NCBI GenBank assembly: GCA_004431415.1
Contig: QPMI01000620.1
Span: forward strand, 1 to 56,212
From: Cyanophora paradoxa CCMP329
Taxonomy: Eukaryota > Plantae > Glaucophyta
DNA length: 56,212 bases
Reading direction: 5' to 3'
Shown: positions 1 to 56,212 of the stretch, piece after piece
Numbering within the stretch: position 1 is the stretch's first letter
Layout: every line of letters starts with the position of its first letter
Translations under genes and position numbers: made by a program
Notes under the pieces: generated by a model
Database searches by the model: none
What the model was told of the DNA's origin: nothing
Seen by the model: only the letters and a program-made list of their open reading frames with translations

Positions 1-1199
1 GCGGGATCGGGAACCGCCCGTTCTTCGCGTGTCCGGAGATGTCGCGGGCGATCACAAAGAACTCCATCTCCCTGGTCGGTCACGAACGGGGTGCGACGTA
101 GGGAGGCTTTCAAGCGCAGCGATGAGCGCGGAGTGAGCAGTACGAAGTCCGTCATTGGGCGCGTCACGACGGTGTGCCGAGGGAATGGGGCGGGCAACAA
201 GGGTACCATTCTCCTGGCGGCCGACGACATGGGGGTGGCAGTCAGCACACGTCTCGTTGGCGAAAGACAGGTCCCGACGGCGAGGCATGTGCGCATCCTC
301 CGTGAATACCGCGGTACGGTAATTGGAGGCCTGCGTGAAGACGGGGTACATGTTGTCGTGGGGCTTGGGGAAGCGGTGCGCGCGCGCCTCCTCCGAGTCG
401 CCTTCCGCATCGATAGCGTTGCGGACGCGAGCCCAGCAGACACCGGGGCCCTTCGGCTCGAGGTACGTCGTGAGCATCTGGAGGGCGGGGCAGTAAAGGA
501 TGGTACGCGCGTGGATCTGGCGCTGGTCGCTCGAAGGGATGCCATCACGAAGCCAGTCAGTGCACTGGATGCCGTCGACGTGCATGCGGTTGTTAACACG
601 GCGAGTGTGCATGTTGTAAGCAACGTTGTCGAGCCAGTCAGTGCAAAGGGGTACCAAGGACTCGCAGCCCTCGACCGCCGGTAGCGAGTCGATTTCGGGC
701 ATCTTGGCGGGCGGGGCCTTGTAGTTCGGGGTCGGCCGCCCACTTCCCTTCGAGACGTTCCCCTCCTGCTGCGAGGTGGCTGCGGGGAGTCGGTGCTCGA
801 TTTGGAGTTAGCGGGCCGAGTGCAGTGTCCATCGGCGACTCTGTGACGGGTCCCCAGGGCGCAGTACGTCCGGGTCTTCGGCTCCCGCACAGAGTCAGCG
901 TCGGAGTTCGTGCTCTTCGCCGAGGGGGCGGCCGCGAAGGTGAGCGACCTCGTGACTGCGACGCGGGCGACGGGATTGATGGCGTTCGGGCGCGGGCGGT
1001 GCATACGGCCAAAGTTTCGAGTGAAGAGCGGGGTTTTCTTGGACGTGACGGGAGCCAAGGCGGCGGACATGCGAGTGTGGTCGTGCCGGCGGAGGCCAGC
1101 GTTGATGAGGTCGCGGATACTGCCGGCAGTGACGCCCCGCGGGGCTGCGCACACCGAATTGGAACACGGGACTCGGCCGCAGTACGGCTTCCCGTTTCC

Positions 1200-19301: not shown

Positions 19302-22300
19302 ATGCGCGGCCGGCTTCTGGTCCTCGCCGCGGCGCTGGTCTTGCTCTCCACAGCGGCGGCGCTGCGCGGCGAGTCCGCGCAGCGCCCGCTGGGCCCCGTG
19401 CCCTTCGCACCGGTCAAGCAGCATGGACAGGGCGCGCCCAAGCAGGAGCCCGGCGAGGCGCACCGCGTGCTACAGATCCCCGGCCTGGATCCGAAGGTGC
19501 GCTGGGCGCCCCGGCCCGAAAGCGCCGGCGCGCGCGGTTGTGTGCACGCAGCGAGCCAGCTCTTCCACGGCGCTCATACGTGCCATGAATACAGATGTTA
19601 AGCATCCAAACAGAGCGATTCGCCTTTGTTGAACGCGTCGCGCGCAGGCCCTCGGCCCCAGCTACGCCGGCTTCGTTCCGGTCCGATCCTTGCCGCGCCG
19701 CGCTTGCACTCGCGCGGCGCAGCAGACCAACTCTGACGCAGATCAACGCGACGGGGGCGGCGGACGGGGAGCCGGGAATGATGTTCTACTGGTTCGCATC
19801 CCTTCACTTAACTTGGATCCGGAATTTGATCCGAGCCGCCCGGCCGACGATGCTCGCGCCCCGATCGACGCGCGCTCCGCGCAGGCTCTTCGAGGCGGAG
19901 AAGGACGCCGAGAGCGCCCCGCTCGTGCTGTGGCTCTCCGGCGGGCCCGGCTGCTCGTCCACATTCGCCCTCCTCTTCGTGCGCGAAAGCGAATCAGAGC
20001 CCCCCGGATTCGAACCCATGACGCCCGATCCGCGTGCGCAGGAGAACGGCCCCTTCACCATCGACCGCGAGGGGACGCTGGAGACGAACCCGTTCTCGTG
20101 GCACAAGGTGGGCGTACCCCCCCTCCCGCAGCCACCCGCCCGTACCCCCCGTGACGCCCCGGCAGGTCGCGAACGTCCTCTGGGTGGACCAGCCCCTGGG
20201 TACCGGCTTCAGCTACGTCTCGGATCCGAAGGGGTATACCCGCGACGAGAGGACAATCGGTGGGCGTACCCCGCTTCATCTCTGCGCCCCTCTGGCGCCG
20301 ACGCCGTGCCCTCCGCAGCCGAGGATCTGTACTGGTTTATGCAGGGCTTCTTCGCGCTGCACCCCCGCTTCTACCCCCTCCCCTTCTACATTTTCGGCGA
20401 GAGCTACGCCGGGCACTACGGTACCCCCGCGCTCTAGGTCTCCGTGGCCGGTACCCCTCCTCGCCCGACCTCCCCCGCAGTCCCCGCGTTCGCGGCGCGG
20501 ATCCTGACGGCGGGGGCGGCGGGCATGGGGCCGTACCCCCCGAACCTCAAGGGCATCGGCATCGGCAACGGCATGACCGATCCGGTCGTCCAGGTACCCC
20601 CCTCCCTCCCCCCCCCCGCGCCCGTTTTCCGCTCCCTGACTCCGCTCCCTGCAGTACGGACAGTACTCGAAGGTGGGTGGGAGCGTGCGGGGCGGCGGCG
20701 CCCACGGCTGCAGAAAGATGCTTTAGAGGCTTTTACAGCCCGGCGGAGACCGATACCCCGATCGGGGGCTAACCCCGACCCCCGGCCCCGCCCCGCCACC
20801 CCCCCGCCCCGCCACGCCCCGCCCCGCCCCGCCCCGCTCTGCTCGGCTGCTGACCGACCCCGGCCCTCAGTTCGCGTACGCGCACGGCCTCATCGACGCC
20901 AACGCCGTCGCCCAGGCGAGCCCCGCCCCCGCCCCCGCCCCCGTCCCCCGTCCCCAGACTCCACGCTCCCCCGTCCTCCACGCCTCTAGATCTCTAGATC
21001 TAGATCTTCGAGCTCAAGTTTCAAGTCCTGTTGATTTCGACTCCTCGCCGAGCGCGCTGCTGACCGCGCGGGGCGGGGCGCGCGGGGTGGCGGCAGGCGG
21101 ACGCGAAGCACGCGGAGTGCGCGGCGGCCCGCGAGGCCGGCCAGCCCGTGCGCGTACCCCCCCTCCTACCCCCCTCCTCCTCCTCCCCCCCTCTTCTCCT
21201 CTCATCCTCCCCCCCTCCCCCCGGCAGCCCGGGGCGCTCTTCTCGCTCTGCAACGAGGTCTTCGGCGTCGTCCTCGCCGCCGCCGGGCCCGTCAACGTGC
21301 GCGTGCTAAAAGAGGCTGCGATCCGATGCGACAGAGAGACGCTAGCGCGTCGTCAGCGCAAGGGCTGAATGCTTGTACCTTCTTCGCGCGCGCGTTCGAG
21401 TGCTCAGGTGTACGACGTGCGGGACAGCTGCGTGACGCAGGGCGGCAGCTGCTACCAGACCCCGCAGGCCGCCGCCTGGCTCGCCGTGCGCCCCTCGGAT
21501 CGCATCCGATCAGATCTGATGTGATCCGATCGCTTCGTTCGCAGCGGGAGGACGTGCAGGAGGCGCTCCACGTGATCGCCCCCGGCCAGGCGAGCGTTCG
21601 CCCCGCCCCGCCAGCCCCCCCGCGCCCATACCCCCCTCCTCTCTCTACTCCCCACCCCTCCCCCAAATCTGCGCGCGAAGCTCCCTTCGCGCTTTTGCAG
21701 TGATTTCACCGCCGCTCGCCTGGCGCAGGCGACGCGGAAGTGGGAGATGTGCGACATGCGCGTCTACGAGAAGCTGCGGGGCGACTGGTGCGCCCCTAGG
21801 CCTGCGCGGGCGCCCTCTGCACCCCCCTTCCCCTTCCCCCCTTCCTTCGGAACCCCTGTGGCCTCGCCTCCGCCGACCCTGGCCATGGCTCCGCAGGTTT
21901 GTCCCGCAGAAGTTTGCGATCCCCCTCCTCCTCGAGCACTACAAGGTACCCCCCTCCTCCGCCCACCCCCCCCCGCCCGCGCGACGGTACCCCGCAGGTT
22001 CTCGTCTACGCGGGCGACATGGACCTGATCTGCAACCACATGGGCCAGAGCGCTTGGTGCTGTCCCCCCTAGGAGCTGTACCCCCCTTGGGGTACGGGAT
22101 TGAGGGGCGGTTTCCGTGCAGGCTCCAGCAAATGGAATGGACCGGGCGCCCCGGCTTCCTCGCCGCCCCCGTGCGCCCCCTTGAATCAGATCAGACCTGA
22201 TCTGATCTGATCTGATCTGATCTGAGCTGCCGGCGGCTTGGCGGCCCGCAGAGGCGCCTGTGGGCCCTGGGGGACGCCCTGGCGGGGTACGCGCACTCCT

Positions 22301-22660
22301 CGGGGCCCCTCACGTACCTCGTGCGCCGTACCCCTCCCCTCGTCCTCCTCCCCGTTTCGGCCGACGCGTACCCCGGCAGGTCGTGCGGAACGCCGGCCAT
22401 ATGGGTTCGCCGCCCCGCCCCGGCCCTCGAGATCAGATCAGATCTGATCTGATCTGATCTGATGTGAGCAGTGCCTATGGACCAACCAAGGGCGGCCCTG
22501 GGTGCGCGCCAATCCCCTCCTCTCGAAGAAGCCCGGATCATATAAAGTGGGCCTCTGCCTCAGACCCACCATAACGTTGACCGTCGCCCCCGCAGAGATG
22601 CTGCGGCTCTTCGTCACGGACGCCGAGATCGGTTCGGCGTCGGCGTCCCAACCAAATTAG
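19302..22660 (+). CDS. Serine carboxypeptidase, family S10, secreted/vacuolar (multi-exon)
   Basis: Signal peptide MRGRLLVLAAALVLLSTAAA; PLVLWLSGGPGCSS, ENGPF, NPFSW, NVLWVDQPLGTGFSY, GESYAGHY (Ser), GIGIGNGMTDP, VYAGDMDLICN (Asp), RNAGHM|VPMDQP (His). Confidence 0.93.
22186..22463. repeat. Intronic (GATCA)n/(GATCT)n pentanucleotide microsatellites, self-complementary
   Basis: atcagatcagacctgatctgatctgatct... at 22186-22223 and gatcagatcagatctgatctgatct... at 22431-22463. Confidence 0.8.
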
Positions 22661-41263: not shown

Positions 41264-41338
41264 CACACATATGAATATTCATATTTTAATCCCTCGGCGT
41301 TCCGCCTCAGGATTAAAATATGAATATTCATATGTGTG
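41264..41338. repeat. Terminal hairpin: perfect 29-bp inverted repeat with 17-nt loop
   Basis: cacacatatgaatattcatattttaatcc (41264-41292) / ggattaaaatatgaatattcatatgtgtg (41310-41338); each arm contains the 16-bp palindrome atatgaatattcatat. Confidence 0.95.
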
Positions 41339-41339
41339 A

Positions 41340-41590
41340 TTCGATGTTATATCAATAAAATCGATTAATTTATTTGAATTTTCACATGAATTTTCATATT
41401 TTTAAATGCATTTTCAATTAATTTAATCGATGTTATATCGATAAACTCGATTAATCGATATTGTATCTTAATTGTAGTTAATCGGAATTATATCTATAAC
41501 TTCGATTAATCTTAATTGAATCCTAAATGAATCTAATCGGAATTATATCAATAAATTCGATTAAATCATGTTCTTTTCCGATTAAATCAA
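41340..41590. repeat. AT-rich iterated imperfect palindromes (~30-bp unit x4)
   Basis: tcgatgttatatcaataaaatcgattaat-like units at ~41341, 41428, 41482, 41538. Confidence 0.8.
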
Positions 41591-41725
41591 TTAAATATTT
41601 AACTTTGTTACCATAAGTGGTCTAAGTTGACTCACTTTTCATAAACATTTTGAACTCTTAGTCTTCTTGAATTTCTTAAGATGACTCAACTTAGTCAACT
41701 TAGTCAACTTTGTTACCATAATCAA

Positions 41726-42442
41726 TCAGGGTGGACTCACTTTTAGATCAACTTTGAAATTTCAAGCAAAATCAACTTATATTTCAAAAGTGGATCTTCT
41801 AAGTGGACTCATAATGTTCACTTTGTGATACATTTAAGTTCTAATGCTTACTGTATATGGTCAGGGTTGACTAAGTGGGGGGAGTTGACACATTTTTCAA
41901 AATCTTTTATAGAATATTCTTTGGATCTCAAAATTTCCTCTGAAATTTGAGTCAACTCAACCCACTTAGTCAACCTTAGCATTGAAATGGTCACATTTTT
42001 ATATACATTTACTCCTTTTACGATTAATATGAATCAACCATGAGTCCACTTAGTATTAAATATCAATCAATGTAAATATAAACAAGGGAATTAAGAGGAA
42101 TGCTTATTGAATATGGTCAGGGTGGACTCACTTTTTCATACAAATCGAATTCCCAAGTAAATTTGACTCTAAACTGTTAGGTGGATCTTCTAAGTGGACT
42201 CAATATGTTCACTTTGTGATACATGTTAGCTCAAATCCTTACTGTTTATGGTCAGGGTTGACTAAGTGGGGGGAGTTGACACATTTTTTGAAATCCTTTT
42301 TAGAAAACTTTAGGTCCCAAATATTTCCTGTGAAATTTGAGTCAACTCAACCCACTTAGTCAACCCTTGCATTGAATTCGTAACAAAATCCATATACTTT
42401 TACTACTTTTACGATTAATATGAGTCAACCTTGAGTCCACTT
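41726..42442. repeat. Two diverged direct repeats (period ~390 bp) built of GTTGACT/GTGGACTC motifs in both orientations
   Basis: 41726-42052 vs 42117-42442; each holds ggttgactaagtggg...cccacttagtcaacc inverted arms. Confidence 0.9.
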
Positions 42443-42718
42443 TAATATAAATATAATATAATAGGGGGAATGTTGAGTTTTACTGTAATGAAATCGAATA
42501 GTATTCGAAATCTTACACTTGTAGGTTTAGGATGCATTCATATTTTGGCTACATCATACAGTAGAATTCTATTGTAAAAAATGTCCGGAATCCGGAAAAT
42601 AATCATTGTAGAAAGCTACTGTAGTAAAAGGATATATTATATCCTTTTGTAACAGTAGCTGATCAATGTTAGTTTTAGAAAACAAAGGAATCCTTTAAAA
42701 ACTCATTATAAAAACCCA

Positions 42719-43117
42719 TCAAAACGGGAATCTATCATGTTTATGTCTCTCAGTCTTCTCAAATGTTAAGAAATTCATTGTTTTATCGATCTCATCTGCA
42801 ACTGCTTGTGTTTTATGCTGAGCTTCTTTACCACAACTGAATATATCAATTGCTAACATGCCTTCATTGGAATAACAATGAGCTGTGCAATGGCTTTCAT
42901 CTAATAGCAGAACCAATGCAAAACCAGGAGGTGATATTTTGCCATCAAATATCTCACAGTGTTTATGAACAATCCTAATGCCTTGTCTTAATACTGCTTG
43001 TTCAAGGGTTCCCATAATCCAATTACCTAGGAAGCTTACATGCTCATGTCCTGTTGCAATAGCTGATTTAGCCTTGTAATCAAGCATAACATGAAAGCCT
43101 CTGTATTTAGTCTCCAT
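42719..43117 (-). CDS. speD: Pyruvoyl-dependent S-adenosylmethionine decarboxylase proenzyme (prokaryotic SpeD/SpeH type)
   Basis: 132 aa; GFHVMLD, FDG..PPGFALVLLLDESHCTAHCY..EGMLAIDIFSCG (E|SH self-cleavage site, catalytic Cys in SCG). Confidence 0.9.
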   Translation of the reverse strand: METKYRGFHVMLDYKAKSAIATGHEHVSFLGNWIMGTLEQAVLRQGIRIVHKHCEIFDGKISPPGFALVLLLDESHCTAHCYSNEGMLAIDIFSCGKEAQHKTQAVADEIDKTMNFLTFEKTERHKHDRFPF

Positions 43118-43140
43118 TAAGAATACCTTAGAAAAATTAA

Positions 43141-43413
43141 CTAGTCAAACCTAATGCAAACATCCCTGTACTCTACTTTGATTGATGAAGTAGCCCTTTT
43201 CCTATAAGCCTGAGAATGCTTTTTGTTGCATTCCCTGCAACCTGATCCCTTCACATGATTAAAGGGATATGTTAGGATCACCTTGTTACATTGCAAACAT
43301 CTAACAGATACTTTCTCTTGAGCTTTGATGTAATGTGTCTCACTGTAATCGAATTTATCTTTACCATGAACTGTCATAGCAGCATCAATAAACTTTTTTG
43401 TTTTAGTATCCAT
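43141..43413 (-). CDS. DUF723-like zinc-binding repeat protein (single unit, no nuclease domain)
   Basis: FIDAAMTVHGKDKFDYSETHY..KVSVRC..C..P.NH.KGSGC..C pattern, as in repeats attached to viral homing endonucleases. Confidence 0.75.
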   Translation of the reverse strand: MDTKTKKFIDAAMTVHGKDKFDYSETHYIKAQEKVSVRCLQCNKVILTYPFNHVKGSGCRECNKKHSQAYRKRATSSIKVEYRDVCIRFD

Positions 43414-43435
43414 ACTCTATATATAACCAATATTC

Positions 43436-44268
43436 TTATGGAGCAGTATCCTGCCCGAAAATGGGGAAATATCGATTTGTGCCATAGTATTCAGCATAGG
43501 TATTCTGCTTTGCAATAAAATCGGTTCTCTCAGCATATAATACACACTTGTAGATACCAAACTTGGTGGCTCTCACCAGAAACTGATAGTCTTCCAAACC
43601 GAAATTGACTCCATGATAAGCAATTCCGAAATTATCATATGGGGTGATCACAACTGCAAAATTAGGAGTTCCTCCCTCTGCTTGACAAAGAGCATAAACA
43701 TCTGGTGGAATATCCACAACTACCTTGTAGTGGTCACCAATCTCAACAAGAGAGTCTACTACTGCTGTTTGTTCATTTACTACAATGGGGAATATCTTTA
43801 TAATGTATGGGGCATTCATGCTGGGGACATAGGTTCGAATTCTTGTGTTGGGATCAATGGGATTGGGTTGATCATTCACAAATAAAGGCGCTCCAACAGC
43901 CCCACCAACCCTAAGACCATCACCAATATAAGCTCCCCCCGATTTGCAGTTAATAGCTCCAGACCTAGATTCAAAAGAATAAGTAGAAAGAGGATCTCCA
44001 TAGCTATCTGGGTCTCCATAATGAGCAGAAAAGTTTGCATTTGTCACAAGTAGCTTAGTCGTCTTAACTATTCCATTATTTTTATCACATCTGAGTTCCT
44101 TTAATCTCAGCTTGTGGGTGGAACCAAATGTGTTCATTGTAGGTTGGACCTCTGTGGATTGGAGACCCTCCACATCATCAAAGGTAGCATGCTGTAAAAC
44201 ATGGTTTGCTGGGGCAGCTAATGATAGTTGAGGTGTAATAATTCGTTCAAGTGGGGTTGCTCAGCCAT
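43436..44268 (-). CDS. Fibre-like paralog A (1-nt frameshift near 44254)
   Basis: Restored N-terminus MAEQP(P)LERIITPQLSLAAPANHVLQH aligns with paralogs; KELRCDKNNGIVKTT..SGGAYIGDG. Confidence 0.7.
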
Positions 44269-44291
44269 TTTACATTAAAGGGATATATCTT

Positions 44292-45137
44292 TTATGGGGT
44301 TGGGTCATCAATTACATCTGGCTCTTGGTAAAACCCTGTTTGAGAAAGAGTATCAGGAGTAACACCTCTAAGAGCTGAGACAGCAGCTATATCTGTTCTG
44401 ATACCCATAACTGTAATTGTATATTTTCCAATATCTGTAACAAACAGATCATAGGTGAAATTGTTATTATAAACACAGAACCCTGTGCCAAAATGATCAT
44501 ATCCCTGAACACTGAAATTGTATCTGTGACCTGGCTGGTTATTGTTGGCTCTACATAAAGAAAGCATTGCAGAAGGAATGACCAGCCCTCTCATTACTCT
44601 TTTGGTTCCTTCAATCAATTCAGAGTTTTCAAGTGTGACAGTATAACCTTGGTAAAATTGAATAAGTGGCTGTTGTGCAACTGGTATATATAATCGAATT
44701 CGTTGGGGGTCTTCAACATTCTGCTCAAGAGTATCTGGGACATCATTATACGAAATTGAGGATGAGAGTTGACCTGAAACTCTGCAGCCACCACCAATAA
44801 ATGCTCCTCCTGATCTCACAGTTACAGCAGCAGTGTTTTTATCATAATCAAGGGCTTTCAGATCAACACTGTAAGCATCAGGACCTCCATTAGTAGGCTG
44901 GAAAAAGTTAGCATTTGTGACAAGAAGTCGAGTTGTTTTCACCACACCTGAATTCTTATCAGCTCTCAGCTCTTTAACTCGAATAATCGAATTTTTATCA
45001 AAGGAGTTGCCATTGGAATTGGGTCTCTCTGTGGATTCTAAACCACGAACCTCATCATTTACTTCATGCTGGCGAAAATGCATTGCAGGGGATCCAAGGG
45101 AATATATAGGCAGTTGAACTCGATTATATTCACCCAT
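44292..45137 (-). CDS. Fibre-like paralog B
   Basis: KELRADKNSGVVKTT..SGGAFIGGG; C-terminal head similar to paralog A (IP..LC..F.V..YD.FG..G.Y....RTD). Confidence 0.75.
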   Translation of the reverse strand: MGEYNRVQLPIYSLGSPAMHFRQHEVNDEVRGLESTERPNSNGNSFDKNSIIRVKELRADKNSGVVKTTRLLVTNANFFQPTNGGPDAYSVDLKALDYDKNTAAVTVRSGGAFIGGGCRVSGQLSSSISYNDVPDTLEQNVEDPQRIRLYIPVAQQPLIQFYQGYTVTLENSELIEGTKRVMRGLVIPSAMLSLCRANNNQPGHRYNFSVQGYDHFGTGFCVYNNNFTYDLFVTDIGKYTITVMGIRTDIAAVSALRGVTPDTLSQTGFYQEPDVIDDPTP

Positions 45138-45172
45138 TGCTTCTTTTACTAAGAAGGAAAGAAAAATAATGT

Positions 45173-45439
45173 TCATTGTTCTTCTGTGACAATGTTATAC
45201 TCGATTGCTTTTTTCACAGTCCCCCTTTGGAATGCCTGTAAAACAATAGCTTCCTTTGAGGTTGGTATTTGAACTCCTCCCGAAATGCAAGACTGAATTT
45301 CTTTCTGAACAATCTCATCAATTGCAATTCTTGCTCTGTTGTGGGCTGCATTGTCAATCCAATTCTGAACAGAAGCAGAGCAATATTCCATTCCCAGTTT
45401 TTCAGTATCTGAGAGGACTACTTGGTAGATATTCGACAT
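45173..45439 (-). CDS. Small helical protein of the type found after C1q fibre genes in aquatic tailed phages (putative fibre chaperone/partner)
   Basis: 88 aa; VLSDTEKLGMEY..SVQNWIDNAAHNRARIAIDEI..QAF..G.VK; family recalled from memory, not searched. Confidence 0.6.
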   Translation of the reverse strand: MSNIYQVVLSDTEKLGMEYCSASVQNWIDNAAHNRARIAIDEIVQKEIQSCISGGVQIPTSKEAIVLQAFQRGTVKKAIEYNIVTEEQ

Positions 45440-45461
45440 TCCTATTTTATGGTGAGAAAAT

Positions 45462-46490
45462 TTATGTGATGCTGATAAGCTCACCTGCAAATGCTGTTTT
45501 AGAAGAATAAACCCCATTTGTATTTGTAACAAGTGTTACATACTCATTAGCAGCAATATAGAGAATACAATTTAGCGAAATGGTTTTGTATCCAGCAGTG
45601 TTTGAGGCAATTACATTTATTGCAACACCACTTGGGTTTGCATCATTTACTTGAAGAGTAAGCTCTATGGGTAGTGATGAGGCTTGTGAGTAGGTAACTG
45701 CTGAAAAACGGTAATGCCCTGAAACAGGAGCAGTAAATCTCCCATTAGCAACTGCAAAATGATTTGTAGGATGATTTAAATGAACGATTCCCCAATTTAT
45801 CAAAGCAGTGGCGCTTGTTGCTGTATGATTATAGTTTAGCTGAACACAGAATCTTGGTTGGGACTGATATTTAAAATAGTTCTGTGTGTTAATTGTCAGA
45901 CAGTTCGATTCAAGCAATGCCACAGTATTGCTATTGCGTTTAAAAAGCAGATTTGTGGCAGATCCAGTATCTATTTCAGGAGTAATCACTTTTGTTAATG
46001 CTTGGATTATCTGTTGGGACTGATTGGGTATCGAAATACCAGCATTTGCTGTCACCAACCCTGTAAATGTGCTTGTTCCTGTTATGTTTACTTGATTGGC
46101 TGCAAGATTTCCATCAATCCTTGCCCCATCTCCAATGTAAGCTCCTCCACTCTTGACAACAAGAGCTGCATTATTGCTTGTGTTGTCAAAATTTATTAGT
46201 TTGGGTGTGGTGAACCCTCCCACATCATCATAAATTGCTGAATCTGAAACAATCGATCCTGATTGGACTTGGTTTTTATTTGATACTATGAGACCTGTGG
46301 TTCTCACCTTCCCATTATTGCGATCACATCTTATTTCTTTGCATCTAATGACAGAGTTCTGAGAGAATGAATCAGCTCCTGTTGTCTCTGTGCAAATAAA
46401 ACCTGGTGTAGCATCTGTGACAGTGTGATTAAGTTGATGTATTTTTGGTGCTGCATAACAGAAAACAGGTACTGCTATCTGAGTAGTCAT
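45462..46490 (-). CDS. Fibre-like paralog C with C-terminal gC1q/TNF-like head
   Basis: KEIRCDRNNGKVRTT..ALVVKSGGAYIGDG; QPRF..INWG.VHLN..F..NGRFTAPVSGHYRFS..FAGELI. Confidence 0.82.
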   Translation of the reverse strand: MTTQIAVPVFCYAAPKIHQLNHTVTDATPGFICTETTGADSFSQNSVIRCKEIRCDRNNGKVRTTGLIVSNKNQVQSGSIVSDSAIYDDVGGFTTPKLINFDNTSNNAALVVKSGGAYIGDGARIDGNLAANQVNITGTSTFTGLVTANAGISIPNQSQQIIQALTKVITPEIDTGSATNLLFKRNSNTVALLESNCLTINTQNYFKYQSQPRFCVQLNYNHTATSATALINWGIVHLNHPTNHFAVANGRFTAPVSGHYRFSAVTYSQASSLPIELTLQVNDANPSGVAINVIASNTAGYKTISLNCILYIAANEYVTLVTNTNGVYSSKTAFAGELISIT

Positions 46491-46512
46491 TCTTTACATT
46501 AGACAGACAATA

Positions 46513-47568
46513 TTATGTTAAACTCACAAGCATCCCACCAAAAAGTAAACGGGAGGGATATGTTGAGTAAGGATAATAAAGTTGTATAGAGTCATTTTGG
46601 GAAAGATTAATTAAAATGTCAAGTCCATAGCAAGTGACTCCACCTTTTTCTTGGTTATACACTTGCAATCCGGTATCTGCTCCATTTTTGTATATCATTA
46701 GATAAAATATTGTCGATGAAGTTCCAATTGAGAAGAAGAACCTGTAACATCCAGCAATTGGTGCTGTAAAAGTGCCTGTTGTGGGGTCAAAGCAATTTCC
46801 CTGATCTACCAACTCTGTTCCATAAGAAGTTATTGGACCAGATCCAGAAGGTATTGTGAAAGTTAAAGCTCCATTTGGCGATTGCTTTGCAGCAAAAAAT
46901 CTTGGGCAACCATTTCTTTTCAAATACTTTTCGTTTGATAGTGTCAGAGTTTCGTAATGAGTGGGTGTCTGTAAATTGGAAGGTATCTTTTCAAGAGAGA
47001 AAATCGTAATACCATTTCGTTTATAGTTCGCATTGGTATCTGATCCATTATCTACCTCAGGTGCATTAATTCTTGTAGTAGCTGTGAGAGTTCCATATTG
47101 GATATTTCCTGAGAGACCACCATTCAAAGACATCAATCCTGTGAATGTACTTATCCCACCCACATTTAATTGATTAGCTGTGACAGTTCCTGCTACATTT
47201 GCTCCATCACCAATGTAGGCTCCTCCACTTTTAACCACAAGTGCAGAATTATTACTTGTGTTATTGAAAGTAACTATCTGTGCTGTGGTAAATCCACCTA
47301 CATTATCATATACTGCTGAATCCGGGACTACCTGACCTGCTTGAACCTGATTCTTATTCGAGATAATAATCCCTGTGGTTCTTATCTTGCCTCCATTTCG
47401 ATCACATCGAATTTCTTTGACTCTGAGAATATTGTTCTCTGTGAAAGAGGTATTGCTTGAAGTTTCAGTGCAAATATACCCAGGGGTTGAATCAACTACT
47501 TCATGAGAGGTGCTATGGAGTGATTTGGCTGCAAGTTCATAGTTTGGGATTTCTAATAGAGAGGTCAT
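46513..47568 (-). CDS. Fibre-like paralog D with C-terminal gC1q/TNF-like head
   Basis: KEIRCDRNGGKIRTT..ALVVKSGGAYIGDG; PRFFA..DQGNCFDPTTGTFTAPIAGCYRFFFS..LSQNDSI..FGGMLV. Confidence 0.82.
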   Translation of the reverse strand: MTSLLEIPNYELAAKSLHSTSHEVVDSTPGYICTETSSNTSFTENNILRVKEIRCDRNGGKIRTTGIIISNKNQVQAGQVVPDSAVYDNVGGFTTAQIVTFNNTSNNSALVVKSGGAYIGDGANVAGTVTANQLNVGGISTFTGLMSLNGGLSGNIQYGTLTATTRINAPEVDNGSDTNANYKRNGITIFSLEKIPSNLQTPTHYETLTLSNEKYLKRNGCPRFFAAKQSPNGALTFTIPSGSGPITSYGTELVDQGNCFDPTTGTFTAPIAGCYRFFFSIGTSSTIFYLMIYKNGADTGLQVYNQEKGGVTCYGLDILINLSQNDSIQLYYPYSTYPSRLLFGGMLVSLT

Positions 47569-47587: not shown

Positions 47588-50500
47588 TTAAATTGCGACA
47601 GCAATGTAATGAATTGTAACTGGAAATCCAGGTCTGTCAAAAGAACTTAATGGAACTATTTCAAGCTCACATGTGAAATAGCTACTGTAAACTTGTTTAA
47701 GCCTAACATACATGCGGTAGTAGTAGGCTGTCTCATTGTGTTGTATACCGGTTGTTACAATAGGAGGGTTAGCAAAGCTGCTGTTGAAATTAATAGTGAG
47801 GTTAAACCTATGGTCAGGGTTTGCCCAAAGATAAGGAGTAGTGTAAACATACGTTCCTGCTTGAATTTTCCCATTAAAATATGCATTGAGTTGACTGGAA
47901 AGATCTGCTTCTGTGATACATCTACTAATAGTGGAGCTATCTGTGGGGTTCATAGCATAGAAATTCCTTGCATATGCATTTCCTCTGACCAGTAGGGTTT
48001 GATCATAATAATTCTGCGAATTGTGGAAGAACCATGTTTCATCAAACATAGGTCCTGCTGGCTCTACAATCTGACCTGTTCCTACATACATTGTGCTGTT
48101 TGCTCTGATAGTGGTTGCTGTGAATGGATCCAGAGAAGGTCGATCTGTAATATCTCCCCAAAGGTGTGTGTGTGCAAAATCTGTAATTTGAGATTTAGTG
48201 TGAGTATGTGCAAAGTCTGTTATCTCACCTTTGGTGTGAGTGTGTGCGAAATCTGATATCTCACTCTTTACATGGGTATGGGCAAAATCTGTAATCTCAC
48301 TCTTAAGATGATTGTGTGCAAAATCTGTTATCTGTGACTTGGTGTGAGTGTGAGCAAAATCTGTTATCTCAGATTTAAAATGAGTGTGAGCGAAATTAGT
48401 AATATCTGCTCTGGTGTGGAAGTGGGCAAAATCTGTTATCTGGGATTTGGTGTGAGTGTGTGCGAAATCTGTGATCTCTGCCTTTGTGTGAGTGTGTGAT
48501 CTATTATTAAGATCAAGGAAGCTACCTGAATAAGCAACAGGGTGCAGGTTTGCAGCTGTAGGTTTATTCAGGAGATCATTATAATCTCCTGTGAAGGAGA
48601 TTGTTTTTAGTTCACCCCTTCCAACATAATCAGAAGGGAGATCAATCTTGATAGGCATTATAGCAGGATCAACTGGAATCTCATATTCACCTCCTGGGTG
48701 AACCACAGGAAAAGTTTGATTGCTTTCAGTGTGGACAAAGAAGTTGCATGCTGTTACTGTTCCATCAATAATCCCACCTGTGAGAGGGAGGTAATTGCCT
48801 GTGACTCCTATACCTGCAATGACTGTATTAAGTTCTGTTTCATCTATGTAGTTCTGGGCTTGAAGGTAATCCTCTGTCACCACTCTTGATATGGTCTCAT
48901 TGTGAATATTCTTTGCTGCTGCCCTTTGATTAATTTCTAAAACTCCCTCACCCACTCCACCATTATAATTCGTTTTATCCATGCCATCTCACATCTCTTG
49001 TAGTCATCTCGATTTCCTAGAACAGCATCAGGTAACAGTCTCTCTCTGCTAAATATTAATTTTGGTCTTGAACCATCCAAATCACTCACATCAGTAACAT
49101 TAATTTGGATTGCTGCATCTTTGTCATCATAGTTGACTGGATCAGATGGTAGTGATAGTAAACCTCCTGTCATTGGGATGTCATCAGCATAGTAACTGGT
49201 TAAATAGATACCTGGTTTGGTGTCCAATGCTCCAAAGTTTCCACCTGCTGCAATCATCTGCATTCTTGTAGGGGTCTGATGTATAATTCACCTTCCATAG
49301 TGGTCCCTGCATCAATACCCTTTCGATTGACATAATAATCATTTAGTTGTAGCCTCTCAGGTATGGTATTACTCTGGTAAAGACTCACACCATGTGGGAA
49401 GTCTGTTAACAGATTGCCTGCAGATGCAAATTTGGGTTGCTGGTCAATTTCACCCCAAGGGTGTCTGTGATTACAGTTGGTGATCTGGGTATAATCATGA
49501 GTGTGAGTATCAGGAGGGAAGGTGATAGGTTTGTCTACAATATTTGACCAGGCATGTGTGTGATCATCTGGGGAAAAGTCAATGGTCTGTCCACAATATT
49601 CGACCAGGCATGGGTGTGATCAAAATCTATAATTTGGTCTTGGTGTGGGTATGGTTTTGATCCACCCATCCACAACATTTGAAGTTGGATGATGTGGAAG
49701 GTTTGCATTAGATGTAACAGTAAGATAATCAACAGTTATATTACTTGCATAAAGGTTACTTGTGTAAAGGTTACTGGTGACAGTTAGGTCCCTGTGATTG
49801 TTCCACCAGTTTTAAGAAGATACTTTGATAATTCGACTGCAAGTTCATTTTTAGTTACATAATTTGCGAGCATAGCAAGGGTGACTATATTCACAAGAAC
49901 AACAGCAGTAAGGTAATCCTCTGTGACCACTCTCGAAATGCTCTCATTGTGTATGTTTTTTGCAGCCATCCTCTGATTGGCTTCCAGAACCCCACCATAA
50001 TCTGTTTTAATCCATGCAAGCTCTGCCCTCCCATAATTATCATTTGCAGTTCCCACTATGGGAATGTAGGAATACTTATCTCGACTGAAAACTATCATTG
50101 GTCTTGAGCCATCTAAGCTGCTTACATCTGCTACATGAACCTGTATAGCAGAGTTGTAATTTTGGTAGGTTGCTGGGTCTGTTGGGACTCTGAATGTATC
50201 TGTGGGAATGTCAGCCTCCATGTAGCTTGACACAAAGATATTTGGTATGGTCGCTCCTGGTTCAGGTGGTGGATTATAAGAGCCTGGTAATGTCCTAATA
50301 TGAAGTGGTCCTCTCATAGCTGAATTAGCAAGTGTCCCATTCACATGAACATAGTGTTCATTCAAAAAGATCCTTTCAGGGACATTACAAGTCTGGTAAA
50401 GAGAAACCCCCAAGTTATCAAGAGGCTCTACCTTTGCGAATTCTGGTTGGTCGTTGATCTCATCCCAAGTATGTTCATGTTTGCTTGGTGGGAACTCAGT

Positions 50501-51916
50501 TGGAATCCCATCAATTTCACCCCAATCATGCCTGTGATCCTCTGGTGGATACTTCTGAGGTTTGCCTAAGATCTCATCCCAATCATGATTGTGATCCTCT
50601 GGGGGATACTTTGCAGGTTTATTATTAATTTGTTCATAATCAGGAAAGAACTCCCAGATCTCAGGTCGAAATCCATCTGGTAACAATTCCTCATGGGGTT
50701 CATAAGGTTGCTCATAATCAACAGCTGGTGGATCATGCCCATCTGGCAAATACTCCTCATCAGGTTCATAGTTCTGCTCATACTCAAACTCTTGGGGATC
50801 TAAGCCATCTGGTAGTATCTCCTCCTCATTGGGGTCAAACTGATCATATTCATATTCTTGTGGGTCAAAACCATCTGGTAAATATTCTTCCTCATCTGGA
50901 ACGAATTGATATTCATCAAGCTCTAATATATCGACTTCAGGAGGTAAATACTGCTCATCTATTTGCTTTCTGGGTTCAATTATAGGTTTATTGCGAACTT
51001 GCTCCCAACTAACAATATGCTGCCCAAAGGCTACATCTTCAGTTGCTGTGTATTCTCTTCCAGGCTGCTTCTTTGGTGTTAAATCGGGTGGTCCATTGGG
51101 AAATGGAATAGGGAATGGGACTGTTGGTCCATTGGGACCATAATGCTCGATTATTTCCCTTAGAGTTTTCTCACTCACAAGTTTCTCCCCATTTGCATAC
51201 ACATTGCTGCCATGGATATTTCGCCATTGCCTGGTTCGAATTCCAAGGTCTTTCACATTGCTATACAAAGGCAAAAGGTGCCTATCCATTTCGACTAAAT
51301 CAGGGTGTAAATGGATTGCTACTGGTTGACTGGGGCTACTGTTGATTGTAATTGATGGCTTTTTTTGGTGGACATCTTTTGGAGTAAAAAACCCAAAAGG
51401 CTCATTCCTCGCAAAGTCATATGTAATATCCTTGGGGTATACATCATTTGTGTAGGAGACCTGATTTGTGTTGGCAATGGGACCCACTTGCAATACTTGG
51501 GGGACCTCAGCTTTTGCAGTGCTGCCCTCATTGTAAATTCGCAAAGCTGTGTTCTGTTTGCCCTGCTCATCTTGAACATTGAAAACCAGACGACCACTGT
51601 CAAACCTGGAAGGTATATCTGGGTGAGTGCCACTGGTTTTTAGTTTCCTAGGTCTCCTTCTTGTTGCTTTGATCTCTGCCACTTGGTTTGCTTTCACATT
51701 ACCCAAACTAAAAGCAACACTGACATCCTCTTTATCTGGATCAGTTTGATTCACAGATAAAGCATGCTCCCTCGATTGAGTCTTTGATGAATTATCGGAA
51801 CTGTGGTCAATCGAAACTGAACCCTTTACTTTAATATTATCAAAGTTCACATGCTTGGTGCTGCTTGCATTATCATCTTGAATGGTTTCTAGATTTGGTG
51901 GGTAATTGAAGCTCAT
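47588..51916 (-). CDS. Long mosaic fibre (~1440 aa when several 1-nt frameshifts are repaired): acidic repeats, HxH repeats, duplicated ~200-aa module, H-type-lectin-like tip
   Basis: ORFs 49784-51916, ~49260-49790, 48937-49263 and 47588-48982 join up; module GVSLYQ..PER..LDGSRP..FSR..AWIK..NQR.AAKNIHNE.ISRVVTEDYL..TGG.I.G occurs twice; C-terminal FNSSFANPPIV..IHYIAV. Confidence 0.75.
48137..48496 (-). repeat. 10 x 36-bp coding repeat HTHTKS(E/Q)ITDFA (phage tail-repeat-like HxH motif)
   Basis: Counted directly in ORF 47588-48982. Confidence 0.92.
50650..50960 (-). repeat. ~5 x 22-aa acidic coding repeat EEYLPDG.DP.E.EY
   Basis: Visible in ORF 49784-51916. Confidence 0.85.
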
Positions 51917-51959: not shown

Positions 51960-53510
51960 ATGCCTCTCAAGGTCGTTTAAGTCTTTCTGGCGGGGTGCAA
52001 GGGGCATTATCATAACCAGGCTGCTAAAAGAAATCGAAAATCGAACTGGCAGGAGAATAATCGATCTTGTGATCTTGTGAGTGGAACTTCCACTGGTGGG
52101 ATCATTGCAATTGGTTTGAATATAAGGCATCCTGATAGACCAGGTGAACCTAAACTGACAGCAAACGATTTACACAATATTTACCTAACTCAACTGCCCT
52201 TGATTTTCGCAAATCTCGAATATAATCGAAAATGCCCTTTTAATACAAAGTATGATGTGGGACCCTTGGAGACTGCAATCAATTCAGTTACTGGTGAATC
52301 ACTAATACAGGATTCCCTAAAGGACATTGTGATTACATCCTTTGATACTCAGAATATGAAACCAATATTTATCACAAATGACAACAACTACAACTTTATG
52401 CCTTGTAAGATTGCTGCTAGGGCTACTTCTGCTGCTCCTACATATTTCTCTCCTGTAAGCATTGTTGATTTCAATCGGGGAGTATATGTCTGTCTCATTG
52501 ATGGTGCCATTTCGGGAAACAATAATCCCAGTGTGTGTGGTTACAGCCATGCAAAGAAGATTTACAGTGATGATGATGATATAATAGTAATAAGCATCTC
52601 TTGTGGAGAGGTGGACCCACATTTAGAGTCTGATTATGTGGGTTATGCTTATGAGACTGTAAACAGCTGGGGCATTCTCTCATGGATTGCCTCAACAGAT
52701 GGAAGCCCATTGATTAACATGCTCATGGCTGCAAGTGAGCTTTCTGCCCTTGATAAGATGGAGGAGTTGTTACCCTACAACTATGATCAGGATTATGGGA
52801 GATACTATAGGCTATCAGTCCCACTTCCAAATCATATAGTAAGCTCCCTGGATGACACTTCTAAAATCCCAGACATGCTTGCATTCACTGAAACATACAT
52901 TGCAGCAAACAATGATATGATTAATAAGCTTTGCAGCCTACTAGTAGCAAACTATGAACTAAAGAACCCTACAAAGGCTTACATTTCATCCACTCTCACT
53001 ACATCACCTCCTTTGGATGCCAATTGGTATCAGCTTGCAGATGATGCCTTTACTGCCTCATCCTCTGTGACAGGTAAAGAGCCTTTCATGGCTAGACCTT
53101 CAGCATTTGGCTGGGAAGCTGGAGCCTATGCTCCTGAGCAGATATGGGAAACCCCCACTGAATACCTTCAAGTTGCTTTCCCATACACTTTTGAACTCTC
53201 CTCTGTGATTGCCTATGGCTCAGGGGACACCAATGCTTTTATTAAGACTTTCAATGTGGCAACATCCACTGATGGGATCAACTGGTCTTTTATTCGATCA
53301 GATGGGCAAAACAAAATGTATGTCTGTGAGAACATTAACAATGCTCACAACTCAGGTGATGTGGCTTTATTGAGTGGATTCCCTCTCAGCATCAAGGATG
53401 CTTTTTACATAGGTTTTTCTCTCAGAATTAAATATATTCGCATTTATCCCCTTGTGTATGTGAATGCTCCCACAATGAGAGTTGATTTCACAGGTGCCTT
53501 TATTCGATAA
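51960..53510 (+). CDS. Patatin-like phospholipase fused to a C-terminal discoidin (F5/8 type C) domain; three 1-nt frameshifts in the first 110 nt
   Basis: Restored LSLSGGGARG; GTSTG (Ser), ARATSAAPTYF, LIDGA (Asp); FTASSS..W..EYLQV..TS.DG.NW..YIRIYP..MRVD. Confidence 0.88.
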
Positions 53511-54416
53511 ACTCCAACTGAAAAGAATTATCGATTCCATTCATATCAATCAGTTCACCAAAGTAATCTTTAAACTCAACTGTGATTCCCTTATCACCAG
53601 GTTCTGTCATTTATCTGAATGAATTCTGCATGCTCACCACTATGGTAAACATAGCCACCTATATCCTTACTCAATTGCAATCTAAGGATTGCCCCTGTTA
53701 TGTGGTTGCGATTTCGGAACTATATTGTGTCTGCTGGCAAAGGGGCAAGCTCTTTAATGTGCATGTATAGATACTGCTCAGCATTCATATCAGACATCTT
53801 TCTGCTGTCAAAATAATATTGCAAGGCTTAGATGAGAGTCTGGGTCCTGAAAAGGTGTTCCCATGCTGGGTGATCAGGTGTAATAGGTTTGCCATCATAC
53901 TTTAACAGGTTCTCAGGTCGATAGGGTGATCCACCAACAGGAGGAGTGCTATAATACCCATTGGTGTATTCAGTAGAACTTACACCAAAAGCTTCCCTAT
54001 TCTCTGGTTGCTTGCAATAAACGAAACTCATGGTTACTGTAAAACTCCACTTTATAGGTAGTTGGGTTATAGAATATCTTGAACTCAAAAGCTACTGTTT
54101 TGCCTGCAATGGTTTGGAAGCTTGAATAATTCAGCCCATAATTATAAGGGTGTGTTACCCCAAAATGACCCTGATTGATGTAGCCACTGGGAAGGGATAC
54201 ACTTGTTGTGTGATCACTTGGTTATATGAACCATCTTGGTAATTAAACTGAACTGTTAGATGATCAGTTCCCAACTGTTATAGATGCTGTTGAATCTCTG
54301 CATATAGAACCTGCATTCCTTGGTCTCTCTACTGGAGTTGTGAGGGTGACCCTGTAAGAGTTTTCATTTTGTCCTTGGCTTCTATCCCTGCTATCAATAT
54401 TAACGAGCCGGTTCAT
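53500..54416 (-). CDS. Minor capsid protein (penton, single jelly roll) 1, frameshifted
   Basis: N-terminal MNRLVNIDSRDR..NSYRVTLTTP..VLYAEI.NSIY; internal QYLYMHIKEL; C-terminal ITVEFKDYFGELIDMNGIDNSFQLEF. Confidence 0.78.
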
Positions 54417-54445
54417 TTTAATATATAAATATAGATAAAAGAAGA
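54417..54445. promoter_or_regulatory. 29-bp AT-rich bidirectional promoter between the two penton genes
   Basis: tttaatatataaatatagataaaagaaga between divergent ATGs; similar 43-bp spacer at 51917-51959. Confidence 0.6.
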
Positions 54446-55441
54446 ATGCCTGTGGATTACATCGAGGTTAGCTCATTTAATACAATCTCTGGTGATGGTC
54501 CCACATCAAGCTTTGTGGCTAGACTCCCCAGTACTTATGAGAATGTGAGGGCTGTGAGACTGTCTCAGCCGAATTTTATAACAGCATCCCTATGGTGAGT
54601 GGTGAAACCAAAGCAGGAGATATAACAGTTGACAACACTTTTAGTATTTATTATTCTGAAGAGCTTGCGGGAGCTGGAATTACAGGAATTCCAACAACTC
54701 GCCCAGCTGCTGATTTTGAACAATGGAAACAATTCATTGTAAATCGCGAAACCCCCATTCAAAACCACCAACAGCTGGTGAATGTTATAAATGAAAAGTT
54801 TAATGACAGAATCCTAAACCATCTGTTCGCTGCAAATGGGATGAGTCACTGAAACGATTATATTCCATCCGAAAAAAAGTTTTACCTGGCTTTCTCACTT
54901 GCTGTAGACCCAAACCTGAAAACAATCCAAAAGCTGTTAAGCTCAGCTCGACTTTTGGTCTTGATCCTGGAAGATATGGTAATTCCCCAATCAATCACAG
55001 GTCTATGATGCTCTCACTGATGGAATCTTTACTGAACTCGAGTAAACGTATTATATCTTCATTTGAGCCTGAAATGACAGGACAGTGTTTTGTTTGTGAG
55101 AGTAAAGGAGCTGGGTGATCTGGTGCAATGTGGGATGGTCTCCTGACTGGTTACTTCCATAAATAGTGGTCCCTGACAAAGATATGGTGAGCATGTAGTT
55201 TACAATTCGACAGAGGCTCATCCACTTTACAAATACTATAATAAGAAGGTTGATTATCCACTTTCTCGGTGATATTGTGAATGCTGTTAATGAACCAATT
55301 GATTTCGAGGGTCAACCTGTTCATCTTACCTTTGAAATTCGCTATGGTGATGAGCCAGCTGGGGACCCAGTTTATGAATACTATAAGATGAGAATGTCGC
55401 AGCTTCACCCTTCCTATCCAGTTATTACAAACTTCGCATAA
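54446..55441 (+). CDS. Minor capsid protein (penton) 2, frameshifted
   Basis: SSFVARLPSTYENVRAVRL..AEFYNSI; C-terminal LIIHF..NEPIDFEGQPVHLTFEI. Confidence 0.72.
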
Positions 55442-55493
55442 ATTAAGGATCATTGGTAGATTTTTTATGTTGCAGTATAATAAAGAGAATATA

Positions 55494-56212
55494 ATGATAT
55501 CACTTCCACTCTTCAAAGACTTTCGCTGAAAGAAGCCCTAACAACCCCAGAGGAGGCGAAAGCCTTTTTCCTGGATAACTCCCTTATGCTTGGTCTCGAA
55601 TCCAAGTCTAAGCCAGTTCTAGTTGTTGTGAATCCTAGTAATACTTTCACAAATAATGTAGGAAATCGCATTTCCTTCAAGCTACCTCGCTACAATTTCT
55701 GTGGAAAAACTCGAACTTGCTTTCGACCTTCCAGCCATCACTTTTGCTGGTGATACTGATCTAGTTCGCAATGGATACACTCGCCCAGTTGGTGCTTTAG
55801 TTCAGCGACTTGAAATTACCTATGGATCTTACACCTACCATATTCCATCTGATTTCCTTGCTCATTTCCCCCTGGTCTATTATTCGGAGGATCAACTAGC
55901 TAAAAAGAAACGATCAATGGGCATGGTTCATGGCATCCCTGCTCATGGAACCAACCGACTTGGTGGCTCATTTTTCGTTGAAATTCCAGTGCCTTGGCTA
56001 AAATCACTACCTTCCCCTTGGTGCTTTATCTGGTGAAATGGTTGTTACTGTTTGGTTTAAGGATGTTGGAAAAGGCTATGTTGAAACATCCTATGGTGGT
56101 CGTGGTCTTACTGTTGCAGCAGCTGATGTAGATTATTCAAAAGATGATGGTCTTGGAACTGCCCCTGCTGAAACTGTTCTGGCAAAATGTTGGTCAAAAC
56201 ATCACAGACTTT
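55494..56212 (+). CDS. Double-jelly-roll major capsid protein, 5' part (frameshifted, truncated by window end)
   Basis: GNRISFKLPRYNF..KLELAFDLPAI..VGALVQRLEITYG..FFVEIPVPW..GEMVVTVWF; directly downstream of the penton genes. Confidence 0.7.

What the first reader, a model, noticed from the sequence alone, without database searches (positions are those of the whole stretch)
43436..47568. Tandem array of four fibre paralogs: constant N-terminal module, exchangeable heads
Seen: all four share a ~100-130 aa N-terminal region (H-x3-H..D..G..TE..F....R.KE(L/I)R(C/A)D(K/R)N.G.(V/I)(K/R)TT.(L/I)..N.N..SGGA(Y/F)IG). They form two subpairs: A/B with one head type, and C/D with gC1q heads that are much more diverged from each other than their N-termini. 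Known: gC1q/TNF folds are trimeric ligand-binding heads. Inference: a capsid-anchoring domain displaying a repertoire of receptor-binding tips, for host-range hedging or for docking on both the host cell and a helper giant virus. I do not recognise the shared N-terminal domain as a named family.
Basis: partly seen in the sequence, partly recalled or inferred. Interest (0 to 1): 0.82.

Follow-up and report, generated by a model that had tools for sequence, protein, structure and literature searches.

The report
Swappable-tip fibres of an endogenous virus
A virus inserted in a microbial eukaryote's genome carries four related genes that share an unnamed front module but end in different tips, likely trimeric attachment fibres whose phage-like tips get swapped, a design already proposed for a virophage but here seen in a new protein family.

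Summary
Four minus-strand paralogs in an AT-rich viral insert share a 119-126 aa N-module (37-61% identity) that matches no named family. C and D end in C1q domains only about 26% identical. A and B share a second head, predicted to be H-type-lectin-like. Two corrections: an 88-aa gene sits between B and C, and gene A's start codon lies in another frame.

New evidence: (1) Cyanophora paradoxa gene models carry the module at 84-98% mutual identity on three unrelated head folds (four variants), so swapping is real in the family. (2) A's head is as conserved as its module in two orthologs, so not every head varies. (3) A folds as a homotrimer in a model (0.72 versus 0.00 for controls); residues 1-50 stay outside the confident interface and are a candidate capsid anchor. 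(4) Homologs of the 88-aa gene follow C1q-tipped fibre genes in phages, so tip plus partner looks phage-derived.

The design has a direct precedent in Zamilon Zav_1/19/20. Ligands, virion location and giant-virus docking are untested. Verdict: new variant of a known kind.

The parts
41264..41338 (.). Left end of the AT-rich insert: 75-nt hairpin with a 29-bp perfect stem
   Evidence: GC falls from 0.67 to 0.39 here; fold z -14.8, 0 of 200 shuffles as good
43436..44268 (-). Gene A: N-module plus predicted H-type-lectin-like head; frame break just after the ATG at 44268 (open frame 44260-43439, 274 aa)
43511..43813 (-). Head of A (residues 150-250 of the open frame), beta-sandwich
   Evidence: pLDDT 72-86 per block of ten over about residues 151-250; VIA top hits Z 5.3-6.2
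43904..44260 (-). N-module of A
44292..45137 (-). Gene B (281 aa from the likely start; ORF open from 45176): N-module plus A-type head
   Evidence: 35% identity to A over 256 aa
45173..45439 (-). 88-aa partner gene directly after C; homologs follow C1q-tipped fibre genes in phages; likely a tip assembly partner (inferred)
   Evidence: 42-51% identity to phage proteins; adjacency
45462..46490 (-). Gene C (342 aa): N-module, shaft, C1q head
   Evidence: Pfam C1q at 214-336
46513..47568 (-). Gene D (351 aa): N-module, shaft, C1q head
   Evidence: Pfam C1q at 247-347; PDB C1q-fold hits
47588..49784 (-). Gene E, in several frames: phage-tail-repeat (PTR) array and H-lectin C-terminus; does not carry the N-module
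49784..51916 (-). Gene F (710 aa): fibre-like, shares a second domain with E
   Evidence: PHROG tail/fibre hits; tblastn to E
51981..53510 (+). Patatin phospholipase fused to a discoidin (F5/8) domain; likely entry protein (inferred)
53500..56212 (.). Frame-broken genes read as two penton-like genes and a major-capsid-like gene (motifs recalled, not confirmed by any search)
   Evidence: no hits
42719..43413 (-). S-adenosylmethionine decarboxylase and a small endonuclease-associated zinc-finger-like ORF, downstream of the array

Best explanation
A-D are paralogs in an inserted viral element and are likely short homotrimeric virion fibres of a Polinton-like virus, in which a shared N-module likely fixes the fibre to the capsid and an exchangeable C-terminal head likely binds surface glycans or proteins. 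SHOWN: shared module, two head classes here, C1q in C and D, the same module on further unrelated heads in Cyanophora paradoxa models, and the C1q-tip-plus-small-gene arrangement shared with phages. PREDICTED: trimerisation of A, with module residues 51-132 as an intertwined shaft and 154-250 as a trimeric head; an H-type-lectin-like fold for the A/B head. INFERRED: residues 1-50 (invariant H, H, G, E, F; no confident self-contacts) bind a penton or capsomer, so all paralogs would use the same docking site. New heads would arise by recombination just after the GG-x-x-(I/V)-x-x-G shaft repeat, where all family members diverge, with tips drawn from the phage fibre pool. The 88-aa gene would help C1q tips fold or assemble. 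One particle, or a population of particles, would thus display several specificities, with the patatin-discoidin protein assisting entry into the host cell. A is a conserved fibre and the C/D class is the variable one.
For: Paralogy and head classes. Trimer: ipSAE 0.72 against best control 0.00, runs agreeing in at least 55% of contacts, partner pLDDT at least 54. The mark was reached by 21 of 30 proteins solved as pairs and 0 of 23 solved as single chains (eukaryotes 17 of 29 and 0 of 30); the job held three copies, unlike the calibration, and the alignment was not used. A head: of the top 7 VIA rows, 5 are H-type lectins or H-lectin-like fibre tips (2ccv Z 6.0, rmsd 2.8, 85 aligned; 6cu2 5.4; 4mtm 5.3; 6cl6 5.3; 2w94 5.3), one is a cyanophage tailspike domain (7eea Z 6.2, rmsd 2.2, 69 aligned) and one is unrelated (grouping by fold recalled). 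Swaps: among 6 full-length C. paradoxa models the module is 84-98% identical. Heads are unrelated in 11 of 15 pairs (z -1.2 to 0.3), 38% identical in the C1q pair and 97-98% in the 3 pairs of the same type. One such head is 40-44% identical to the C-terminus of phage proteins, one of which has a weak beta-helix match. Partner gene: 19 of 24 phage homologs with a visible upstream ORF follow a C1q gene (12 of 15 distinct); Pfam confirms C1q in 10 of 13 distinct upstream ORFs tested. Context: PTR, H-lectin, tail-fibre and patatin-discoidin neighbours, as described for glaucophyte PLVs (PMC12220804 section 13). No transmembrane-strength hydrophobic segment in 13 sequences.
Against: No call shows virion location, capsid binding or any ligand. 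VIA Z is under 8, which the tool says may mean only a common arrangement, and Foldseek found no PDB match at E<=0.001. The trimer pass may come partly from memory of solved lectin or fibre trimers. Monomer models of the module are unreliable (pLDDT under 50). The A-type head is conserved (62-68%) in both orthologs, against a generally variable repertoire. The six family C1q heads fall on one side of a branch against 15 phage heads (92/91, bootstrap not settled), which fits one old capture followed by divergence rather than repeated capture. The C. paradoxa sequences are gene models whose DNA I could not see: false splicing could join a module to a neighbour (P0022 is such a fusion), and 17 of 23 module-bearing accessions are short or fused. 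The capsid-like genes, E and the start of A are frame-broken, so this copy may be dead. The capsid genes were identified from recalled motifs only.
Confidence: 0.7

Rival explanations
1. The paralogs are fixed, co-assembled parts of one appendage or of distinct capsid sites (for example a branched fibre built on E/F). Each has a set job, and they are not alternative tips competing for one site.
For: A is conserved end to end in independent elements. The paralogs are old (pS 0.60-0.72). E and F form a second fibre-like pair upstream, and a PTR-bearing gene also precedes a module gene in a C. paradoxa model (P0022).
Against: Near-identical modules on unrelated heads in C. paradoxa fit interchangeable parts better.
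Confidence: 0.15
2. The heads serve mainly to dock on a helper giant virus's fibrils, or on bacteria used as vehicles, rather than on the eukaryotic host. It concerns the target only and is compatible with the fibre architecture.
For: Proposed for Zav_1/19/20. The tips resemble phage tips that face bacterial surfaces. A virophage tail protein binding Synechococcus LPS is reported (PMC12724248, search listing only).
Against: No helper virus is known for this element. PLVs with fibres and lipases are argued to enter on their own, and this element has patatin-discoidin.
Confidence: 0.2
3. The array is duplication debris of a decaying provirus; the heads differ by drift and have no repertoire function.
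For: Frame breaks in A, E and the capsid-like genes; many short copies in C. paradoxa.
Against: B, C, D and the partner gene are open. pN is well below pS in the module (0.24 versus 0.72 for C/D). Unrelated folds cannot arise from one another by drift. Decay of this copy says nothing about the ancestral function.
Confidence: 0.07
4. Non-virion proteins: secreted or cell-surface decoys or adhesins expressed from the provirus.
For: C1q and H-type lectins are also cellular recognition domains.
Against: No transmembrane-strength segment and no long N-terminal hydrophobic core (a hydropathy scan only); the genes sit inside a structural gene block.
Confidence: 0.05

Closest known systems
Zamilon/Sputnik virophage fibre set Zav_19 (V8), Zav_20, Zav_1 (bioRxiv 10.1101/2023.01.23.525297; abstract and sections 7-9 read)
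   Same: Several fibre paralogs share an N-terminal domain and differ in their beta-sandwich heads. Zav_19 is a trimer. The authors propose capsomer anchoring and recognition of different ligands, including giant-virus glycans.
   Different: Their shared domain is a 52-aa beta-prism; ours is about 120 aa, with no sequence match in the PDB. No collagen stalk here. The heads here are C1q and H-lectin-like, the genes are clustered, and the element is endogenous.
Phage-like fibres of Polinton-like viruses (PMC12220804, section 13 part 1 of 2 read; Ltf of PgVV/Gezel-14T, bioRxiv 10.1101/2022.07.28.501842, passages)
   Same: Modular fibre genes with phage-type domains; PTR + H_lectin and patatin-discoidin are described in glaucophyte PLVs; Ltf was found in virions.
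   Different: Those are mostly long single proteins. C1q occurs 0 times in the PMC12220804 main text and in its 2 held supplement files. The passages I read describe no array of short paralogs on a shared module.
C1q-tipped fibre arrays of aquatic phages (PMC3909814, PMC7468147, passages; loci L001-L025)
   Same: Tandem fibre genes with variable C1q tips and a more conserved N-terminus; the same 88-aa downstream partner; the order C1q, C1q, partner occurs in L001 and L024 as in D, C, partner.
   Different: The phage N-terminal motif is not detectably homologous to our module (hhalign probability 0.4%; best E 0.46 among 167 ORFs). The host domain differs.
Adenovirus fibre (recalled)
   Same: Short N-terminal tail binding the penton, trimeric shaft, trimeric knob; some adenoviruses have two fibres.
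   Different: No sequence match found; different head folds; four or more paralogs here.

Membership tests
gC1q/TNF-fold head (C, D) | Pfam C1q above the curated cut-off | tested here: met
   30.4 and 38.0 bits versus 23.7; PDB C1q-family hits for D
gC1q/TNF-fold head (C, D) | Homotrimer of the head | not tested
H-type lectin / gp53-like fibre tip (A, B) | Same beta-sandwich fold | tested here: inconclusive
   VIA Z 5.3-6.0 to 2ccv, 6cu2, 4mtm, 2w94, under the tool's bar of 8; no Pfam hit
H-type lectin / gp53-like fibre tip (A, B) | Trimer through the head | tested here: met
   In a model only: confident contacts among residues 154-250; 0.72 versus 0.00
H-type lectin / gp53-like fibre tip (A, B) | Sugar binding | not testable with these tools
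   needs a binding assay
Zav_19-type virophage fibre | N-terminal beta-prism homologous to Zav_19 1-52 | tested here: inconclusive
   No such chain among PDB hits at E<=10 with 4- and 10-sequence profiles; no reliable monomer model of the module for a fold comparison
Zav_19-type virophage fibre | Several paralogs with a shared N-domain and different heads | tested here: met
Viral fibre / receptor-binding protein | Present on the virion and bound to penton or capsomer | not testable with these tools
   The capsid-like genes are in pieces; no complex with them was modelled
Polinton-like virus | Double-jelly-roll MCP and penton genes | tested here: inconclusive
   Fragments at 53500-56212 resemble them by recalled motifs; no hit in Pfam, PDB or viral contigs
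Polinton-like virus | Packaging ATPase, integrase, terminal inverted repeats at both ends | not testable with these tools
   The window ends inside the element and no genome is held; only the left end is seen
Polinton-like virus | Compact intronless insert of distinct GC in a eukaryotic genome, with PLV-type accessory genes | tested here: met
   GC 0.39 versus 0.67; eukaryotic genes in pieces on the left; patatin-discoidin and PTR + H_lectin

The most novel reading that the evidence does not exclude
The many endogenous copies of this virus family act as a head library. Recombination at a fixed shaft repeat reshuffles phage-derived tips (C1q with its own partner gene, H-lectin-like, tailspike C-terminal, others) onto one constant capsid anchor, so reactivated particles display several specificities and can track changing hosts, helper viruses or bacterial carriers.
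Probability: 0.3. Interest if true: 0.75.

Novelty: new variant of a known kind. Interest (0 to 1): 0.52.

Why it matters
How Polinton-like viruses attach to cells, and what sets their host range, is largely open. This locus gives a small testable kit: one 50-residue candidate anchor, four natural fibres, and family members with near-identical modules on different heads. It also shows a eukaryotic virus holding a phage C1q tip together with the phage's neighbouring small gene, which points to uptake of whole tip cassettes from bacteriophages. The N-module is a new, rare marker family (7 hits among 1.84 billion representatives). The general design is already in print for Zamilon, which limits the surprise.

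Tried and rejected
No named family for the N-module: Pfam (4 members, E<=10, best 0.086), PHROGs (10 members, no family hit twice), NCBIfam on whole proteins, PDB sequences, ESM Atlas (unnamed small phage clusters at 0.91-0.93 with low shared-feature counts). A single-sequence search with D 1-135 found nothing among 139 candidates. No genomic context for relatives: scans of viral contigs with array proteins or profiles and metagenome contigs gave no locus; capsid-like fragments likewise. C and the A head had no match among annotated phages. Homology of the module to the cyanophage fibre N-terminal motif was considered and not supported. The single-sequence AlphaFold model of D was unusable (pLDDT 37). 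dN/dS could not be estimated because synonymous sites are near saturation, so positive selection on heads is untested. The P0006 head resembles the phi29-type autocleaving chaperone from memory, but Pfam gave no hit. Reads could not be obtained, so frame breaks (assembly error or decay) and variation among copies of this element stay open. Literature searches with no paper: virophage + fiber + C1q, Polinton-like virus + C1q. Most subscription papers are outside the library, and bioRxiv supplements and any cut parts of the PMC12220804 tables could not be seen and may list C1q or this array. Three look-ups of earlier findings returned nothing.
Full report
Setting. The window is GC-rich eukaryotic DNA up to about 41262 (GC 0.67; pieces of kinase, carboxypeptidase, peroxiredoxin and X-family polymerase genes). 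After it comes a compact insert of GC 0.39 that runs off the window. The insert starts with a 75-nt hairpin and subterminal repeats. It carries an AdoMet decarboxylase, the array, two further fibre-like genes E and F, a patatin-discoidin fusion, and broken genes that I read from recalled motifs as two pentons and a major capsid protein. PMC12220804 (passages, section 13 part 1 of 2, and a two-term supplement search) describes patatin-discoidin fusions in glaucophyte PLVs and a PTR + H_lectin protein in a Cyanophora paradoxa PLV. A Polinton-like virus in a protist, possibly a glaucophyte, is the likely reading; the host was not established and no genome is held.

Observation. It is confirmed. 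The module spans 119-126 residues, with 37-61% identity and z 27-73 in 6 of 6 pairs. The parts after the module are related within A/B and within C/D, and unrelated in 4 of 4 cross pairs. C and D have C1q domains that are 25.5% identical over their last 140 residues.

The module's family. No library names it. A profile search of 1,835,955,588 representatives gave 7 hits. A second profile search among longer proteins gave 6 hits of 7,996 scored, two of them new. A search with the A head gave 2 of 43 candidates. The named hits are all C. paradoxa gene models. Of 23 module-bearing accessions, 6 are full length with a head and 17 are short or fused. Among the six, modules are 84-98% identical. The heads are two C1q variants (38% identical), one type in three copies that matches the C-terminus of phage proteins at 40-44%, and one unknown type; 11 of 15 pairs are unrelated. 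All diverge just after the GG-x-x-(I/V)-x-x-G repeat, as do the window's intronless paralogs. This is the best evidence for exchange, with the caveat that these are gene models whose DNA I did not see. Against a general repertoire, A's two orthologs match it at 61-63% in the module and 64-68% in the rest. On a tree of 15 modules the A/B head type is one side of a branch (90/85), while C1q needs 4 changes (at least 2 forced by well-supported branches).

Structure. AlphaFold on a 10-row alignment placed only the A head with confidence. A wide structural search put H-type lectins and related fibre tips in 5 of the top 7 rows, at Z 5.3-6.0, below the tool's bar of 8. Foldseek found nothing at E<=0.001 in the PDB and 5 viral models, of which one is a minor tail protein, one is uncharacterised and three are unnamed. 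Three copies of A scored ipSAE 0.72 against a best control of 0.00. The runs agreed in at least 55% of contacts and partner pLDDT was at least 54. The mark was reached by 21 of 30 solved pairs and 0 of 23 single chains, the job is unlike the two-copy calibration, and a pass may come from memory. Confident contacts cover residues 51-132 and 154-250 but none in 1-50. I infer that the later part of the module is the shaft and that the first 50 residues, with invariant H, H, G, E and F, are free to bind a capsid protein. The tool warns that unnamed residues are only uncertain, so this is a lead.

The partner gene. The 88-aa protein is 42-51% identical to phage proteins (3 of 50,697 phage records; 23 viral-contig loci). 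Across 25 loci there are 27 homologs; 24 have a visible upstream ORF and 19 of those are C1q genes (12 of 15 distinct, with a local profile built from these same heads). Pfam independently confirms C1q in 10 of 13 distinct upstream ORFs tested. As background, 19 of 55 distinct ORFs of 200 aa or more in these loci are C1q, and the loci were selected by the partner. These loci are tandem fibre arrays; the S-SRM01 region is annotated with tail-fibre-like, virion structural and endosialidase genes. PMC3909814 and PMC7468147 (passages) report C1q domains as variable putative receptor-binding proteins of aquatic phages. A phage origin of tip plus partner is inferred from this linkage. The direction was not tested: the tree had no cellular outgroup and placed the 6 family heads apart from 15 phage heads (92/91, unsettled). 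The partner's role as an assembly helper is inference.

Mechanism and rivals. The most likely reading (0.7) is short trimeric virion fibres on a common anchor, with heads replaced over evolutionary time, a conserved A-type fibre and a variable C1q class. Fixed parts of one appendage (0.15), debris (0.07) and non-virion proteins (0.05) are less likely. Whether the targets are host cells, a helper virus or bacteria is untested. The entry-type enzyme next door and the arguments in PMC12220804 and bioRxiv 10.1101/2022.07.28.501842 (passages) favour the host cell. Synonymous sites are near saturation, so selection on the heads could not be measured.

Comparison and novelty. The design is therefore known. 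What is new is the module family, the C1q and H-lectin-like heads in a clustered array of a eukaryotic virus, near-identical modules on unrelated heads within one genome, and the retained phage partner gene. Searches for C1q with virophage or Polinton-like virus returned no paper in a library that lacks most subscription journals. bioRxiv 10.1101/2025.10.09.676808 and PMC12344493 (passages) added only context; the latter reports giant-virus inserts in C. paradoxa, so the context of the C. paradoxa copies is not certain. PMC12724248 was seen as a search listing only. Verdict: real, a new variant of a known kind, interest 0.52.

Noticed in passing
window 41264-42454: The insert begins with a 75-nt hairpin (29-bp perfect stem), then five ~50-nt repeats and a ~390-nt tandem duplication; a hairpin at an integrated element's end may bear on how it replicates or integrates.
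   Followed up: partly
window 48940-49800 and 53500-56212: Frame breaks cluster in gene E and the capsid-like genes, while 42719-47568 has one; assembly error or local decay is undecided.
   Followed up: partly
window 47588-51916: E and F are a second fibre-like pair sharing a domain (41-48% identity) unrelated to the A-D module; F has acidic repeats, E has about nine 12-aa His-rich repeats.
   Followed up: partly
window 53500-55441: Two divergently oriented penton-like genes (recalled motifs); two pentons could offer distinct fibre docking sites.
   Followed up: no
window 42719-43117: S-adenosylmethionine decarboxylase near the element's end (Pfam E 2.8e-11).
   Followed up: no
L009:2946-4273 versus L011:3136-4273: The same slot in near-identical phage loci holds a non-C1q fibre with its own small gene in one and a C1q fibre in the other, with the 88-aa homolog downstream in both: a tip swap that leaves an orphan partner.
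   Followed up: partly
L009, L011, L012, L017, L021, L024: Phage fibre arrays in which most fibre genes are followed by a 70-110 aa small gene that seems specific to the tip type.
   Followed up: no
window 1-3700: Retroelement-like region with a zinc knuckle and 36-nt repeats.
   Followed up: no
window 21494-22474: Clusters of GATCT-type pentamer repeats in host DNA.
   Followed up: no
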